Shown: positions 5,274 through 9,710 of the stretch, in pieces
How the letters are laid out: each line of letters starts with the position of its first letter
How positions within the stretch are numbered: position 1 is the stretch's first letter
Source: a virus
Taxonomy: Duplodnaviria; Heunggongvirae; Uroviricota; Caudoviricetes
Strand: one strand, 5' to 3'
Virus record (IMG/VR): IMGVR_UViG_2648501437_000019
Span: 1-21,072 of that record
Length of the DNA: 21,072 nucleotides
Made by a program: the position numbers and the translations under genes
Notes under the pieces: generated by a model
The model's input: the letters and a program-made list of their open reading frames with translations, nothing else
What the model was told of the DNA's origin: nothing
Database searches by the model: none

Positions 5274-5504
5274 GCGCACATAATACGCGAGCGGATACGG
5301 AACAAAACAAAATGCCGATCCGCGCCGACAAATAAACGCGGATCATAAAGCAAGACTAAAAGCCAATGATTAACTATGCGCTATAACGCGTTTTAAGCGC
5401 GTTAATGTGTTAAGTAATGGGTATGTACTGGCAAGGATATAAAAGCGCGTCTATGGCGTTATTTTGGCGCTTATTTTTATGTTGTTGGAGTGAGTTAAAG
5501 ACAA

Positions 5505-5530
5505 TAAAAAACGCGCCATCAATGGCGCGT
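5505..5530 (-). terminator. intrinsic terminator, minus strand
   Basis: GC-rich palindrome ACGCGCCAT/ATGGCGCGT (5511-5530) preceded on the plus strand by AAAAAA, which is a U-run after the hairpin on the minus strand. Confidence 0.55.
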
Positions 5531-5551
5531 TATTGTGGAAGTATTGGAAAC

Positions 5552-5576
5552 GAAAAAAGCGCCCATAGTGGGCGCT
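5552..5576 (-). terminator. intrinsic terminator, minus strand (possibly bidirectional)
   Basis: AGCGCCCA-TAG-TGGGCGCT (5558-5576), flanked by AAAAAA on the plus-strand 5' side and CGATTTTATTTG on the 3' side. Lies just downstream of the stop at 5582 on the minus strand. Confidence 0.6.
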
Positions 5577-5581
5577 CGATT

Positions 5582-5832: not shown

Positions 5833-6036
5833 TTAAATAGAATTTTGAAGTTTTCCGATTAATGCGCTTAAACGTAAGTATTCACGTTTGCGCTTGCAAT
5901 CTCGCTTGCTGTTAAGCAAATCAGAAAACGTAAAATTTAATTGGTCGCGTTGCGCGATTAAATCATCGATTAATTCTAGTTTATAAGCGCGATACTTTGC
6001 GCGATATTCCGCGCGGATCTTGTCATAGCTGACCAT
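5833..6036 (-). CDS. small basic hypothetical protein (67 aa)
   Basis: ATG at 6036 preceded by AAAGGAG about 9 nt upstream on the minus strand. Confidence 0.55.
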   Translation of the reverse strand: MVSYDKIRAEYRAKYRAYKLELIDDLIAQRDQLNFTFSDLLNSKRDCKRKREYLRLSALIGKLQNSI

Positions 6037-6736: not shown

Positions 6737-6984
6737 GATAATATCCTTACGAAAAATTAAAATGAATTTATTTTTTACTGTCGTTAGCCAGCTCGCTTTC
6801 GACGAGTTCAATTATCGATACGTGAAAAAAGATTGCAAGTGTTTTTTTAAATTTTTTGCAGGGGTGAAAGCCCTAGAAATAAAAGAGAGAGCGTCGAAGG
6901 TGTTCCCTAAATAAATAATCAATTCGGGCCTTTAACCTTATATATTTATACGGGGTGGCATTGAAAGAGTTTTAAATGAATGGC

Positions 6985-7017
6985 ATGTAAAATAATAACC
7001 GGACTTAGCCGGTTATT
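6985..7017 (-). terminator. putative terminator, minus strand
   Basis: AATAACCGG (6994-7002), loop ACTTAG, CCGGTTATT (7009-7017), followed on the minus strand by an A/U-rich stretch. Confidence 0.4.
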
Positions 7018-7029
7018 ACCCTTATAGAT

Positions 7030-7554
7030 TTAAAATGGAAGGATTCGTTCAACCCAATCGAAGAAAACAAGTATTTTTCTGCCGTCTTCTAACTTAAGAG
7101 TGACCTGGCAAGCATCAACGCCTCTTGACACCCCTTCAATTTCACGACCGTCTGCCATGTAGACCCTTATAGATTGGTCGTTTTGATAAGCCTTGCGACA
7201 TATCGCAAAAAAGTCACGGCGTGATGGCTGATTGTCAACATAGTCTGGATGTATTGTTAGCCTACCTTTGAACTCGCGAGCAATGCCATCGATTACACCT
7301 GATTCAATTGTGCTAATGCGCTCAAGTGGGAGTCTTATACGATTTTCTTTATCATATGGAAGCGGGCATAAATCTAGCTTATTGCGGGAAGGCATTGTCC
7401 CCTGAACGTACATGCAAAACACCTGACCGTCTTCAAGCGTGACTCTTACAGGAATGTTGTTCTTCCGCCAGAACATAAGTATGTTTTCAGCATGTTCGTA
7501 GTCTCGCGGCCAGACTTCAGCCGGTATGCCGTAGGTGATGTCCGATGTTCTCAT
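7030..7554 (-). CDS. hypothetical cytoplasmic protein (174 aa)
   Basis: The start ATG overlaps the upstream stop (ATGA at 7551-7554), so it is translationally coupled. Confidence 0.6.
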   Translation of the reverse strand: MRTSDITYGIPAEVWPRDYEHAENILMFWRKNNIPVRVTLEDGQVFCMYVQGTMPSRNKLDLCPLPYDKENRIRLPLERISTIESGVIDGIAREFKGRLTIHPDYVDNQPSRRDFFAICRKAYQNDQSIRVYMADGREIEGVSRGVDACQVTLKLEDGRKILVFFDWVERILPF

Positions 7555-8150
7555 TCTGATACTCTTAGAGGTGTTTTCAGCAACCCAAATTTAAATTCTT
7601 TGTTACCAACGACAAAGAAGGGAACCTCAACATAGATTTTTTTATCGACGGATTTAGAGTTCGCTGTTTTCTGTATGTCACGAACGATACGTTTTGAGGT
7701 ATTTTCATCGATAAACAATACCTTTCCACTTGTATTCCCTTCAGCCTTGGCGTAAGTAACGATAGGGTCTTCATTGCCAACCCTAATGTTTACTTGGCAA
7801 CCTGTTGTAGCCATTTCATCACAGTAAAGTGTGCCGTCTTGAACTTCTAAAACAATTCCAGATGGCTTCATGGCTTCGTCAGAGCTTACATTAACGTTTT
7901 CTGGTACAGCGGTCCCGTTAATTTGCAACCGTAATCTTTCTTTTCCTCCATTAAGTATTGTTTCTTCTGCGTTGTCTGAGAATCTGAACCAAACTGGCTG
8001 ATTCAGACCTCGTGATTTGTATTCTACTACATCTTCGGAGGTAAACATGCTGTACGTTTTTTGCATGTCAGAGGCGAAATCTGATAATGCGTTGGCGGAA
8101 AACGCCGGGAGGCATATACAAGCAAGGAGTAACGAAAGTTTCATTTTCAT
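7551..8150 (-). CDS. hypothetical secreted protein with N-terminal signal peptide (about 199 aa precursor)
   Basis: MKMKLSLLLACICLPAFSANA-LSD: basic n-region, hydrophobic core, AxA-type cleavage motif (ANA). The listed start at 8165 is TTG, so ATG 8150 is preferred. Confidence 0.6.
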   Translation of the reverse strand: MKMKLSLLLACICLPAFSANALSDFASDMQKTYSMFTSEDVVEYKSRGLNQPVWFRFSDNAEETILNGGKERLRLQINGTAVPENVNVSSDEAMKPSGIVLEVQDGTLYCDEMATTGCQVNIRVGNEDPIVTYAKAEGNTSGKVLFIDENTSKRIVRDIQKTANSKSVDKKIYVEVPFFVVGNKEFKFGLLKTPLRVSE

Positions 8151-8165
8151 ATCATGATAATCCAA

Positions 8166-8654
8166 TTATTTAACATCACACTTTCTAAGTTTTTCTATTT
8201 GTTCTAATTTTTCATGATCATCATTTAGATTTCCTTCGACTATCTCCGTTTCAAGTTTGCTGATTAGCATGTTAAGTGCGTTGTAGTTATTGCATTTTAC
8301 TTTGTAGGCGTAGTATGACCTTGTCCCTGGTTTTTGTACACCCATATCATTAAAGTTAGAGCTTAAAGTATAACCTTCAAGTTCAACCCCTTTTATTGTT
8401 GGAAGAATTATATTTAATGGTTCTAATTTAAATGGGTAGATATAAATATGTGATATGAAGTACTCTTCTGAAGAGATTTTCTTCATGTCTTTTGTGATTG
8501 AAACTGAATATTTACGGTTCCGAGTGATATAAAATTTTGTGCATCTGTACAGCTCTAAGTTGAATAGATAATATTTGTCTTTAAAAAGAACATCTTTTCC
8601 ATGTGATATTTTATGTCGTAAAGAGTTAATTATTTTGTTTATGGAAATACTCAT
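8166..8654 (-). CDS. hypothetical protein (162 aa), strongly AT-rich gene
   Basis: ORF with G+C about 23-30% in hand-counted 60-nt stretches; K/N/I/Y-rich product. Stop lies 15 nt upstream of the next start. Confidence 0.55.
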   Translation of the reverse strand: MSISINKIINSLRHKISHGKDVLFKDKYYLFNLELYRCTKFYITRNRKYSVSITKDMKKISSEEYFISHIYIYPFKLEPLNIILPTIKGVELEGYTLSSNFNDMGVQKPGTRSYYAYKVKCNNYNALNMLISKLETEIVEGNLNDDHEKLEQIEKLRKCDVK

Positions 8655-8763
8655 CTACAGTATCCGACCTTAGTTATCAATTGAAAAGCCTACAAATATC
8701 GTTCTGCCAATCAAGAAATTTTTTCAGCCGGAGGTGTGTACTTCAAAAAATGTGATGGATGTC

Positions 8764-8793
8764 ACATGCAGGTGCTCTCATACACCTGCATGT
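8764..8793 (-). terminator. terminator-like hairpin
   Basis: 11-bp perfect stem ACATGCAGGTG (8764-8774), 8-nt loop, CACCTGCATGT (8783-8793), 7 nt downstream of the stop at 8800; the U-run is displaced by about 17 nt. Confidence 0.35.
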
Positions 8794-8799
8794 AGACTA

Positions 8800-9366
8800 T
8801 TAATCATTCAATAATCTATATTTTCTTTTGATTAAATCTTCACCTTTTTTGGTGAACACAAAACCAAATTGCGATTTTTTGTTCAGCCTCAGTACTCTGT
8901 TATCCAACGCATCGGTTGATGGAATCAATGTTTGATCATCTATCCAATTAAGTAGCGTAAGAAAGTTCAGCAGCCTCAACGTTGTTGTGCGAAGCTCTTT
9001 CGATATATTTTCAATGCTGGCAATTCGTCTTTCTTTTTTCTCAGGTGGTACAGATAATTGTTCTTGAGGTTTCGTGGATAGATAATCAATTTCGTTTGCT
9101 GCATCGAATGATATGTGTGGCGTAATTTTGCTAAAAAAGCCTTTCGCTGACTCACTTGATAATAAACCAGACCTATTCATATCGTTTGTTATTCTGTACA
9201 GGAGTGGACTGTGTTTCATTTCAGGATAACGTTGATAAAAGTTAAGCAATTCAAAAGCAGCATTAGCACCAACAATAAAATCAGAAGGATCGCTGACTTT
9301 CCAGAAAGAATGATTTTTCTTAGCGCCAGTGGTGTCAACAAATGATAATTCTTTTAACCAACTCAT
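8800..9366 (-). CDS. hypothetical protein (188 aa)
   Basis: ATG at 9366 (MSWLKEL...) with AAAGGAG SD; the upstream in-frame ATGs at 9399 and 9396 lack an SD. Confidence 0.6.
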   Translation of the reverse strand: MSWLKELSFVDTTGAKKNHSFWKVSDPSDFIVGANAAFELLNFYQRYPEMKHSPLLYRITNDMNRSGLLSSESAKGFFSKITPHISFDAANEIDYLSTKPQEQLSVPPEKKERRIASIENISKELRTTTLRLLNFLTLLNWIDDQTLIPSTDALDNRVLRLNKKSQFGFVFTKKGEDLIKRKYRLLND

Positions 9367-9399
9367 GATGTGCTCCTTTCTAACAAGTGAGCACATCAT
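9365..9399 (-). promoter_or_regulatory. hairpin sequestering the SD and start codon of the 8800-9366 gene
   Basis: Perfect 11-bp inverted repeat ATGATGTGCTC (9365-9375) and GAGCACATCAT (9389-9399) with a 13-nt loop. On the mRNA the SD spans the loop/3'-arm junction and the ATG overlaps the end of the 3' arm. Confidence 0.45.
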
Positions 9400-9431
9400 A
9401 GAATTAGTAGATAGGGGGTAAATATAAAATG

Positions 9432-9710
9432 TTACGGCAACCTGCTCAGTATTTCCTCTAAATCTTTTTTTGTCATATTGGAGTTTTCATAGATGCGCAT
9501 GATTTTCTCACGCGTCTTAGCGGAAACCCCAACGGCAGATGTGACTTTGTCAAATTCAGCCATAGTCATCGTCTCCAGAATGGCATTGATAACTTCAGCC
9601 TTAGACATCTTGATTTTTTTCTCTTTGAGTTTTATTTGGAATTTTCCAAGTTTTTCATTGGCCTTATCAGACAATGCCACTTGGCAATAAGTTGTTTTCT
9701 TTTCGCTCAT
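9432..9710 (-). CDS. small hypothetical protein (92 aa)
   Basis: ATG 2 nt after the helicase stop codon; lysine-rich. No confident motif. Confidence 0.55.
   Translation of the reverse strand: MSEKKTTYCQVALSDKANEKLGKFQIKLKEKKIKMSKAEVINAILETMTMAEFDKVTSAVGVSAKTREKIMRIYENSNMTKKDLEEILSRLP

What the first reader, a model, noticed from the sequence alone, without database searches (positions are those of the whole stretch)
7030..9399. AT-rich four-gene accessory (moron-like) operon with a secreted protein, downstream of the helicase
Genes 8800-9366, 8166-8654, 7551-8150 and 7030-7554 lie on the minus strand between the helicase module and a terminator at 6985-7017. The 8166-8654 gene has G+C of roughly 23-30% in hand-counted stretches, against about 50% in the structural genes, which suggests horizontal acquisition. 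One product carries a classical signal peptide (MKMKLSLLLACICLPAFSANA) and is translationally coupled (ATGA overlap) to a cytoplasmic 174-aa protein. None of the four has a motif I can recognise. Secreted or periplasmic prophage proteins in such positions often act in superinfection exclusion or receptor blocking, and AT-rich cargo operons in prophages are frequent sites of anti-phage defence genes.
Basis: partly seen in the sequence, partly recalled or inferred. Interest (0 to 1): 0.65.

Follow-up and report, generated by a model that had tools for sequence, protein, structure and literature searches.

The report
Phage-plasmid cargo slot beside FljA-like repressor
This stretch of an SSU5-type E. 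coli phage-plasmid is three rare accessory genes of unknown function, one of them secreted, inserted just upstream of a core gene related to FljA, the Salmonella flagellin translational repressor, which these elements keep even in hosts that have no flagella.

Summary
The four minus-strand genes, the signal peptide, the ATGA overlap, the AT-rich gene and the downstream hairpin are all real. They are not one acquired four-gene cassette.

**Core gene.** The last gene (7030-7554) is a full-length FljA-family protein (Pfam PF03614, E=5e-81). It sits in the same place, helicase -> orf92 -> [slot] -> fljA-like -> hairpin -> orf216, in all 72 SSU5-type loci examined, and homologues occur in 831 PLSDB plasmids. 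These include plasmids of Klebsiella and Yersinia pestis. Its G+C (45%) equals the window mean.

**Accessory genes.** The other three genes fill a variable slot. In PLSDB the orf188 family occurs in 178 plasmids, the sec199 family in 65 and the orf162 family in 23. All three are orphan families with no Pfam, NCBIfam or PADLOC match.

**The slot.** Nearly every variant carries an exported protein, from five unrelated lipoprotein or secreted families. Two relatives have it empty.

**Transcription.** A covarying hairpin and a conserved promoter-like box after orf188 suggest two transcription units, not one.

**Most likely function (inferred, untested).** The core gene is an RNA-binding translational repressor whose conserved target is not only flagellin. 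The cargo is an envelope-acting lysogenic-conversion gene set. No known defence system is present.

The parts
9432..9710 (-). orf92: core 92-aa gene directly after the helicase. It forms the upstream border of the cargo slot.
   Evidence: Present after the helicase in all SSU5-type loci examined, at 36-100% identity. phrog_1466, no Pfam family.
8800..9366 (-). orf188: accessory, basic (pI 9.3), soluble 188-aa protein of an orphan family. It is always the first gene of the slot when present.
   Evidence: AGGAG lies 7 nt before ATG 9366. 10 clusters in 5.8 billion proteins; 178 PLSDB plasmids. A 43%-identical homologue occupies the same position in Klebsiella plasmids. No Pfam, NCBIfam or PDB match, and only a weak, non-credible PADLOC listing (SspC, E=0.0064, 12.2 bits). 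The AF2 model was unusable, pLDDT 43.
8745..8792 (-). Terminator-like element after orf188: an 11-12 bp hairpin (8765-8792), a 3-4 bp mini-hairpin (8752-8764) and a U-run (8745-8750).
   Evidence: dG -25.5 kcal/mol, z -5.3. Across 9 diverged versions 97.6% of cells are paired and 8 of 14 pairs show compensatory changes; 0 of 500 shuffles reach this, and slid controls pair at 17-55%.
8687..8714 (-). Conserved promoter-like box TTGATT-N16-TAGGCT, preceded by an A-run. It would drive orf162, sec199 and fljA.
   Evidence: The same box (TTGAT[TC]-N16-TAG[GCT]CT) follows the hairpin in most of the diverged lineages that carry an orf188-family gene. Homology with phage Cyrano, which has different downstream cargo, resumes at about 8686, immediately after the box. 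The generic sigma-70 scan did not call it, so promoter activity is inferred.
8166..8654 (-). orf162: accessory, very AT-rich (29% G+C), basic (pI 9.2), soluble protein of an orphan family.
   Evidence: 3 clusters in 5.8 billion proteins; 23 PLSDB plasmids. The full 162-aa reading frame is conserved, N-terminus included, in a 57-58%-identical Citrobacter homologue. RefSeq annotates only 106 aa. A distant homologue (29-33% identity) lies in the same position in Klebsiella plasmids. It is found only after an orf188-family gene and before a secreted-protein gene.
7551..8150 (-). sec199: accessory Sec-exported (signal peptidase I) periplasmic protein, beta-rich, with two invariant cysteines. The signal peptide is encoded at 8088-8150.
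7030..7554 (-). fljA-like: core 174-aa gene of the FljA / Flag1_repress family, translationally coupled to sec199 through ATGA.
   Evidence: PF03614 E=5.4e-81, profile positions 1-170 of 170; phrog_1444. 35% identical and colinear with a flagellin-linked FljA. 831 PLSDB plasmids. Same position in all 72 SSU5-type loci. dN/dS about 0.1. G+C 45.0%.
6989..7022 (-). Terminator hairpin that ends the fljA unit. Stem and loop are almost invariant across lineages.
   Evidence: dG -15.3 kcal/mol, z -3.1, followed by UUUU. At least 90% identical in 40 distinct intergenic sequences whose neighbouring fljA proteins are only 54-100% identical.

Best explanation
The window is part of an SSU5-supergroup phage-plasmid of E. 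coli. The finding covers the far end of the leftward helicase gene row and has two different components.

(1) A core gene, fljA-like (7030-7554). It encodes a member of the FljA family. The characterised members of that family block translation of the phase-1 flagellin mRNA. I infer that this protein is likewise an RNA-binding translational repressor. The gene is kept at this position, under purifying selection, in every lineage of the supergroup, including those resident in hosts without flagella (Klebsiella pneumoniae, Yersinia pestis, Shigella). Its conserved job is therefore most likely control of a phage-plasmid mRNA or of some widely shared host mRNA. Repression of host fliC is a possible additional effect in motile hosts such as E. 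coli.

(2) A recombinational cargo slot between core gene orf92 and fljA-like. Here it holds three lineage-restricted genes:
- orf188, which ends in a covarying terminator-like hairpin followed by a conserved promoter-like box;
- the AT-rich orf162;
- sec199, a Sec-exported periplasmic protein with a conserved cysteine pair, whose stop codon overlaps the fljA start, so that FljA-like synthesis probably depends on translation of sec199.

In nearly all relatives the slot carries an exported protein from one of several unrelated families. I therefore infer that the cargo acts at the cell envelope of the lysogen, as lysogenic conversion or exclusion of other phages.

Shown: gene anatomy, family membership by sequence, core versus accessory status, export signal, hairpin covariation. 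Inferred: RNA binding, the target, the promoter, and any envelope or exclusion activity.
For: Identity of the element:
- 99% DNA identity to E. coli plasmids of about 110 kb, which also encode terminase, portal and major capsid proteins.
- Synteny with phage SSU5.

FljA family membership:
- PF03614 at 271 bits over the whole profile.
- 35% identical and colinear with a flagellin-linked FljA, E=6e-32.
- Residues conserved between the clades are listed.
- FljA-type proteins block fliC mRNA translation (PMC2652032 and PMC3378880, both citing Bonifield & Hughes 2003 and Yamamoto & Kutsukake 2006).

Core status:
- 831 PLSDB plasmids: Klebsiella 341, Escherichia 229, Enterobacter 92, Yersinia 62, Salmonella 60. 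822 of them cover at least 80% of the protein.
- The order helicase-orf92-[slot]-fljA-orf216 holds in all 72 SSU5-type loci. The same helicase-fljA-orf216 order holds in a Klebsiella element whose helicase is only 69% identical; no orf92 match was scored there.
- dN/dS is 0.10-0.11, including between Klebsiella-borne copies.
- There is no flagellin gene beside it, whereas the 34-40%-identical clade always follows a flagellin gene.

Cargo status:
- Prevalence counts, mosaic combinations and empty sites.
- Exported proteins of five unrelated families occupy the slot.
- sec199 signal peptide and invariant cysteines.
- Coupling junctions of 0-4 nt without a Shine-Dalgarno sequence.

Two transcription units:
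- Hairpin covariation, 0 of 500 shuffles, and the conserved promoter-like box.
Against: - No experiment or paper was found on the phage-plasmid FljA clade.
- RNA binding is inferred only from family membership and from weak Hfq/Sm-like hints: Pfam Hfq E=0.0012, below its cut-off, and hhalign probability 4%.
- No candidate RNA target was identified. The E. coli fliC leader has no similarity in the window beyond shuffled controls.
- The argument from non-flagellated hosts assumes long residence in those hosts. The elements may move between genera.
- The three cargo proteins have no detectable homologues of known function, and both structure models were poor. The envelope or exclusion role therefore rests only on the recurrence of export signals.
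- The promoter-like box is weak and was not called by the consensus scan.
Confidence: 0.6

Rival explanations
1. Surface-conversion reading. In E. coli the FljA-like protein does what FljA does: it binds the host fliC mRNA leader and stops flagellin synthesis. The lysogen then loses its flagellar filament, which would block flagellotropic phages, save energy and reduce flagellin recognition. The coupled exported protein changes another envelope component. The two together form a superinfection-exclusion or lysogenic-conversion unit.
For: - Full-length membership of the FljA family, with conserved core residues.
- All characterised members repress fliC, including plasmid-borne and E. coli versions (PMC2652032, PMC3378880).
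- An FljA without its own flagellin gene would simply switch flagellin off.
- It is tightly coupled to genes for exported proteins in most lineages.
Against: - Only 32-38% identical to the flagellin-linked clade.
- Kept intact and under purifying selection in plasmids of Klebsiella pneumoniae, Yersinia pestis and Shigella (for S. sonnei). These hosts make no flagella (established knowledge).
- No motility phenotype has been reported for carriers in the literature searched.
Confidence: 0.3
2. All four genes form one horizontally acquired, AT-rich moron operon that encodes an anti-phage defence or exclusion system.
For: - orf162 and orf188 are AT-rich.
- The three upstream genes are accessory and of unknown function.
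- orf188-family and orf162-family genes co-occur in E. coli, Citrobacter and Klebsiella elements at 30-57% identity. This suggests a functional pair.
Against: - The fourth gene is core and has backbone composition.
- None of the four genes has a credible PADLOC match; the only listing is orf188 to SspC at E=0.0064, 12.2 bits.
- A covarying hairpin and a promoter-like box split the row into two units.
- The genes are found only in this slot of SSU5-type elements, not in unrelated prophages.
- The AT-richness is ancient.
- The genes occur in many partial combinations: sec199 alone, orf188 alone, orf188 with sec199.
Confidence: 0.12
3. The three cargo ORFs are decaying or non-functional filler, and only the fljA-like gene matters.
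For: - Frameshifted or truncated orf188 variants exist.
- RefSeq annotates a shortened orf162.
- The distribution is very narrow.
Against: - All three keep open reading frames in homologues down to 30-50% identity, with amino-acid divergence far below the saturated synonymous divergence. dN/dS is 0.11-0.28 where it can be measured, and about 0.5 for the most distant orf162 pair.
- The signal peptide, the cleavage motif and the cysteine pair of sec199 are conserved.
Confidence: 0.05

Closest known systems
FljA of Salmonella enterica, and FljA(z66) of linear plasmid pBSSB1 / FlkB of E. coli flk islands: post-transcriptional repressors of phase-1 flagellin
   Same: Same Pfam family (PF03614) over the full length and the same size (174 aa). 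35% identical and colinear, with shared invariant residues, for example DFF, DxR, G..G and DWV.RI in the C-terminal half.
   Different: It is not preceded by a flagellin gene and is not part of a phase-variation switch. It forms a separate clade (32-38% identity) that is fixed next to a helicase in a phage-plasmid backbone and occurs in non-flagellated hosts. Its target is untested.
SSU5_121 ('putative repressor of phase 1 flagellin') and SSU5_122 ('lipoprotein') of Salmonella phage SSU5, with their counterparts in pHCM2 and pMT1-type elements
   Same: SSU5_121 is the orthologue of the fljA-like gene: 79% protein identity, same position, same terminator hairpin. As in the window, an exported-protein gene lies directly upstream on the same strand, and its stop codon is only 4 nt from the fljA start.
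   Different: The SSU5 slot holds a single DUF2846-like lipoprotein of 53% G+C. The window holds three unrelated genes, with a signal-peptidase-I secreted protein instead of a lipoprotein.
Prophage morons and superinfection-exclusion envelope proteins (for example T5 Llp and phi80/HK022 Cor lipoproteins; named from general knowledge)
   Same: Small exported proteins encoded in a variable, compositionally deviant slot of a temperate element. A terminator-like hairpin and a promoter-like box flank the cargo.
   Different: There is no sequence or reliable fold similarity to any such protein. sec199 has no conserved lipobox. No phenotype is known.
Phage T4 RegA: a translational repressor encoded among replication genes (analogy from general knowledge, not homology)
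   Same: A small phage-encoded protein, thought to repress translation, encoded in a row of replication and recombination genes (here next to a UvsW-like helicase).
   Different: No sequence relationship was tested or expected. This is only a model of how a flagellin-independent role could work.

Membership tests
FljA / Flag1_repress (Pfam PF03614) | Full-length match to the family profile above the curated cut-off | tested here: met
   E=5.4e-81, 270.9 bits against a cut-off of 24; residues 5-171 on profile positions 1-170 of 170.
FljA / Flag1_repress (Pfam PF03614) | Colinear homology with a flagellin-linked, named phase-1 flagellin repressor | tested here: met
   35% identity over 171 residues, E=6e-32, to the repressor encoded after the flagellin gene of a pBSSB1-like linear plasmid.
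FljA as a flagellar phase-variation repressor (functional class) | Encoded directly downstream of, and co-transcribed with, an alternative flagellin gene | tested here: not met
   The upstream gene is a secreted orphan protein. No flagellin-sized ORF lies in the locus or in any of the 72 related loci. The 34-40% clade does follow a flagellin gene.
FljA as a flagellar phase-variation repressor (functional class) | Binds the fliC mRNA leader and blocks its translation | not testable with these tools
   This needs reporter fusions or RNA-binding assays. The only computation possible, similarity of the fliC leader to the window, was negative and does not bear on binding.
FljA as a flagellar phase-variation repressor (functional class) | Occurs only where a flagellin target exists | tested here: not met
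   341 Klebsiella and 62 Yersinia plasmids carry intact copies. dN/dS is 0.11 between Klebsiella-borne copies. That these hosts lack flagella is established knowledge, not tested here.
Sm / Hfq-like RNA-binding fold | Detectable profile or fold similarity to Hfq/LSM | tested here: inconclusive
   Pfam Hfq E=0.0012 and LSM E=0.03, both below their cut-offs, at residues 123-165. hhalign against four Hfq sequences gave E=0.0096 and probability 4%. There is a weak internal repeat, E=0.045. No structure model was made for this protein.
SSU5-supergroup phage-plasmid | Backbone identity and synteny with SSU5/pHCM2-type elements, carried on plasmids of about 100-115 kb | tested here: met
   99% identity to 108-115 kb E. 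coli plasmids, with 0 chromosomal places. Helicase 92% and ParB 88% identical to SSU5, in the same order. Supergroup definition from PMC7969092.
Prophage moron / accessory cargo | Present in some close relatives and absent from others | tested here: met
   Met for orf188, orf162 and sec199. Not met for the fljA-like gene.
Prophage moron / accessory cargo | Own promoter and terminator, independent of the neighbouring operon | tested here: inconclusive
   A covarying hairpin and a conserved TTGATT-N16-TAGGCT box lie after orf188, and a terminator follows fljA. No transcript data exist, and the generic promoter scan did not call the box.
Known anti-phage defence systems (PADLOC-DB v2) | Significant match of any of the proteins to a defence-system model | tested here: not met
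   The only listing is SspC at E=0.0064, 12 bits, for orf188, which is not credible. Nothing was found for the other three proteins.
Bacterial lipoprotein (for sec199) | Conserved lipobox cysteine at the end of the signal peptide | tested here: not met
   The cysteines in LLLACIC are absent from homologues P0010 and P0013, whereas the AxA site FSANA|LSD is conserved.

The most novel reading that the evidence does not exclude
The phage-plasmid FljA clade is a flagellin-independent, possibly Sm-like, RNA-binding translational regulator that belongs to the core life-cycle control of the whole SSU5/pHCM2/pMT1/pKpn supergroup. The well-known flagellar phase-variation repressor FljA would then be a specialised offshoot of this mobile-element regulator family, or the reverse. 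The slot next to the gene would be a dedicated landing site where envelope-acting cargo is placed under the same expression signals.
Probability: 0.4. Interest if true: 0.6.

Novelty: new variant of a known kind. Interest (0 to 1): 0.4.

Why it matters
SSU5-type phage-plasmids are common in clinical E. coli, Shigella, Salmonella Typhi, Klebsiella and Yersinia pestis and are usually treated as cryptic.

If their universal FljA-like gene silences host flagellin, carriage would change motility, H-antigen expression, flagellin-driven immune recognition and sensitivity to flagellotropic phages. If it controls the element's own genes instead, it is an unstudied post-transcriptional regulator of a very widespread mobile element, and it changes how the FljA family should be understood.

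The adjacent slot is a compact and easily cloned collection of unrelated exported proteins, several of orphan families. It is a sensible place to look for new exclusion or envelope-modifying functions. As it stands, the locus itself is an ordinary variable region with unknown genes.

Tried and rejected
- Structure prediction of orf188 gave pLDDT 43. It was not searched further. The afdb50 library was unavailable.
- An exhaustive profile search for sec199 found 9 hits in 1.8 billion representatives. One weak multi-repeat match to a Big_2 protein and one distant secreted homologue gave no functional lead.
- Profile searches of the orf188 and orf162 families and of FljA-like against PDB sequences found nothing below E=0.1.
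- Pfam scans of the Klebsiella and Citrobacter homologues and of the alternative slot proteins gave only sub-threshold hits: DUF2846 for the SSU5 lipoprotein and BiPBP_C for the pJN2-26 lipoprotein.
- Rfam found no known RNA family in the window.
- The E. coli fliC leader aligned to the window scored 24, against 24.6 +/- 2.2 for shuffles.
- The lipoprotein reading of sec199 was rejected.
- Literature searches for SSU5, pHCM2 or phage-plasmid together with FljA, flagellin or motility found no functional study. The original FljA mechanism papers are not held in the library.
- The genome-contig scan returned only 4 loci. The IMG/VR scan was used for the survey instead.
Full report
**What the window is.** The stretch 6900-9450 is 99% identical to about 110-kb plasmids of E. 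coli. It matches 231 of 5426 complete genomes and is never chromosomal. The best match also carries ParB genes, a DEAD-box helicase, and terminase, portal and capsid genes. Among phages it matches only SSU5-type elements: Escherichia phages CMS-2020a, Cyrano and PhiR41_1, Salmonella phage SSU5 and several Klebsiella phage-plasmids. The window is therefore part of an SSU5-supergroup phage-plasmid, as that group is defined in PMC7969092.

**Checking the observation.** The four minus-strand ORFs exist at the stated coordinates. I call them orf188 (8800-9366), orf162 (8166-8654), sec199 (7551-8150) and fljA-like (7030-7554).
- G+C is 35.4%, 29.4%, 40.3% and 45.0% respectively. The window mean is 45.2% and the structural genes are 46-52%. 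Only the first two genes are clearly AT-rich, and the last one has backbone composition.
- sec199 begins MKMKLSLLLACICLPAFSANA|LSD. This is the only hydrophobic segment in the four proteins.
- In seven homologues down to 47% identity, the AxA cleavage motif and the following SD are conserved. The cysteines inside the signal peptide are not conserved. Two cysteines of the mature protein (C110, C118) are invariant. This indicates a signal-peptidase-I substrate with a periplasmic disulfide, not a lipoprotein.
- The sec199 stop and the fljA-like start share ATGA.
- After fljA-like, a 14-bp hairpin with a U-run (6989-7022) folds at -15.3 kcal/mol, z = -3.1.

**The last gene is not an unknown.** It matches Pfam PF03614, 'repressor of phase-1 flagellin', over the whole profile (E=5.4e-81, 271 bits) and PHROG 1444. 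It is 35% identical and colinear with the repressor encoded directly after the flagellin gene of a pBSSB1-like linear Salmonella plasmid. Characterised members of the family (FljA, FljA-z66, E. coli FlkB) prevent translation of fliC mRNA (PMC2652032 and PMC3378880, which cite Bonifield & Hughes 2003 and Yamamoto & Kutsukake 2006). SSU5's orthologue was already annotated 'putative repressor of phase 1 flagellin' in GenBank.

**The fljA-like gene is core to the lineage.**
- tblastn finds it in 831 PLSDB plasmids, and 822 of them cover at least 80% of the protein. By genus: Klebsiella 341, Escherichia 229, Enterobacter 92, Yersinia 62, Salmonella 60, plus Citrobacter, Cronobacter and Shigella.
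- All 72 SSU5-type loci I classified (the window plus 71 IMG/VR contigs) have the order ParB <- | helicase -> orf92 -> [slot] -> fljA-like -> [slot] -> orf216.
- The same helicase-fljA-orf216 order holds in a Klebsiella element whose helicase is only 69% identical and whose FljA-like protein is only 36% identical.
- Where synonymous sites are not saturated, dN/dS is 0.10-0.11, including between copies carried by different Klebsiella plasmids.
- An identity matrix shows three clades. The main phage-plasmid clade is 54-100% identical within itself. The divergent Klebsiella element stands alone. A flagellin-linked clade is 59-68% identical within itself and 32-38% to the phage-plasmid clade.
- Every flagellin-linked member I inspected is preceded by a gene with Flagellin_N and Flagellin_C domains. 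No phage-plasmid member is.

**What this means for function.** K. pneumoniae, Y. pestis and Shigella do not make flagella (established knowledge). SSU5-type elements are frequent in S. sonnei as well. The conserved function of this clade therefore cannot be flagellin repression alone.

Family membership makes an RNA-binding translational repressor the most likely activity. Weak hints of an Sm-like C-terminal domain agree with that but do not prove it: Pfam Hfq E=0.0012, an hhalign alignment to the Hfq Sm1 region at E=0.0096 and probability 4%, and an internal repeat at E=0.045.

I could not identify a target. The E. coli fliC leader has no similarity in the window beyond shuffled controls, and Rfam finds nothing.

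**The other three genes are cargo in a slot.**
- Among the 231 E. coli plasmids with this locus, orf188 is in 87, sec199 in 81 and sec199 with orf162 in 35.
- In PLSDB the families occur in 178, 65 and 23 plasmids, against 831 for fljA-like.
- All three are orphan families: 10, 14 and 3 clusters among 5.8 billion proteins. An exhaustive profile search for sec199 found 9 hits among 1.8 billion representatives.
- There is no Pfam, NCBIfam or PDB-sequence match and no credible PADLOC match; the one PADLOC listing is orf188 to SspC at E=0.0064, 12.2 bits.
- Every homologue whose context I examined lies in this same slot of an SSU5-type element, not in unrelated prophages.
- Two relatives have the slot empty: orf92, a hairpin, a promoter-like TATAAT and Shine-Dalgarno sequence, then fljA-like.

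**The slot has rules.** Its occupants are the following.
- A DUF2846-like lipoprotein on the same strand (SSU5, Y. pestis, Kluyvera, Buttiauxella and some E. coli).
- A 266-aa lipoprotein on the opposite strand (Cyrano type).
- A 145-aa lipoprotein on the opposite strand (Klebsiella pJN2-26 type).
- sec199, alone or after orf188-family and orf162-family genes.
- An unrelated 118-aa secreted protein after orf188-like and orf162-like genes (Klebsiella).
- Small secreted proteins or lipoproteins just downstream of fljA-like in other lineages.

An exported protein is thus present next to fljA-like in all but two of the 72 loci, although many of these loci are close relatives of each other.

orf188-family genes always come first, directly after orf92. 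orf162-family genes occur only between an orf188-family gene and a secreted-protein gene. The whole four-gene order of the window recurs in Citrobacter freundii at 46-66% protein identity.

All three genes keep open frames in diverged homologues, with amino-acid change far below the saturated synonymous change. The low G+C of the orf162 family (28-32%) persists in those homologues. It is therefore an old property of the gene and not a mark of recent arrival.

**Transcription signals.** Directly after orf188 lies a strong hairpin (8765-8792; -25.5 kcal/mol, z = -5.3), then a mini-hairpin and a U-run. Nine diverged versions of this element keep the structure with different sequences. 97.6% of cells are paired, 8 of 14 pairs show compensatory changes, 0 of 500 shuffles reach this, and slid controls pair at 17-55%.

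Next comes a box that is conserved across lineages, TTGAT[TC]-N16-TAG[GCT]CT (8687-8714 in the window), preceded by an A-run. Homology with Cyrano, which carries different cargo downstream, ends right after this box.

I read this as a terminator followed by a promoter that drives whatever cargo lies behind it, plus fljA-like. The 'operon' would then be two units: helicase-orf92-orf188, and orf162-sec199-fljA-like. This is inferred. The generic promoter scan did not call the box, and there are no transcript data.

Where the gene upstream of fljA-like is sec199 or the SSU5-type lipoprotein, the stop and start are 0-4 nt apart with no Shine-Dalgarno sequence. Elsewhere fljA-like has its own Shine-Dalgarno sequence. 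In the window, FljA-like synthesis is thus probably tied to translation of sec199.

**What the cargo does.** I cannot show it. sec199 is predicted to be beta-rich, but the model is poor (pLDDT 56) and the fold hits are weak. The orf188 model is unusable. orf188 and orf162 are soluble and basic (pI 9.2-9.3).

The one regularity is the recurrence of export signals in the slot. No known defence system is present.

**Verdict.** The locus is an ordinary variable region of a well-sampled phage-plasmid family.

The point worth following up is the FljA-like core gene. It is an orphan member of the flagellin-repressor family, fixed next to a helicase, kept in hosts without flagella, and habitually coupled to genes for exported proteins. 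I found no paper that addresses it.

Noticed in passing
window 6737-7029 (between fljA-like and orf216): This non-coding region is more conserved than the flanking genes. Across 40 distinct sequences, blocks that are at least 90% identical include the whole hairpin with its loop (TCTATAAGGGTAATAACCGGCTAAGTCCGGTTATTATTTT), a second TATAAGG repeat (AAATATATAAGG), ATTTATTTAGG-AACACCTTCGA, a promoter-like CTTG...GATAAT (6811-6838) and TCGAAAGC in the orf216 leader. It looks like a regulatory region with protein- or RNA-binding sites. Whether FljA-like acts here is unknown.
   Followed up: partly
window 8166-8654: RefSeq (PGAP) annotates only the last 106 codons (8166-8486) of orf162 in the 99%-identical plasmid NZ_CP048306. 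The full 162-codon frame, including the N-terminus, is conserved in a 57-58%-identical Citrobacter homologue, so the short call is probably wrong.
   Followed up: yes
window 5833-6036: The 67-aa soluble protein matches PHROG 6145, which is labelled 'MIT family metal ion transporter' (SSU5_119 carries the same name). A 67-residue protein with no hydrophobic stretch evident on reading the sequence cannot be such a transporter, so the label looks like a propagated misannotation.
   Followed up: no
window 5447-5577: A cluster of strong G+C-rich hairpins with T-runs lies on both strands. These look like bidirectional terminators where the leftward gene row (orf216, orf67, orf76) meets the rightward genes.
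   Followed up: no
L090-L099 (IMG/VR contigs of 23-46 kb): FljA homologues of the flagellin-linked clade (34-40% identical to the window protein) lie directly after flagellin genes on contigs that IMG/VR classes as viral. They may be pBSSB1-like linear plasmids or prophages carrying an alternative flagellin with its repressor.
   Followed up: partly
L001 1-2343 (NZ_CP048306, just upstream of the window start): The closest plasmid carries metG (methionine-tRNA ligase) and apbC next to this region. These are unusual housekeeping-type genes for a phage-plasmid.
   Followed up: no
proteins P0023-P0027 (orf188 variants in other E. coli plasmids): Several plasmids carry orf188 versions of 114-129 aa with frameshifted tails. 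The gene is therefore being lost in some lineages.
   Followed up: no
window 9432-9710: orf92 is a core, basic (pI 9.5) 92-aa protein that always lies between the helicase and the slot. Its N-terminal strand-like segment followed by helices suggests a small DNA-binding protein, but no family match was found.
   Followed up: no
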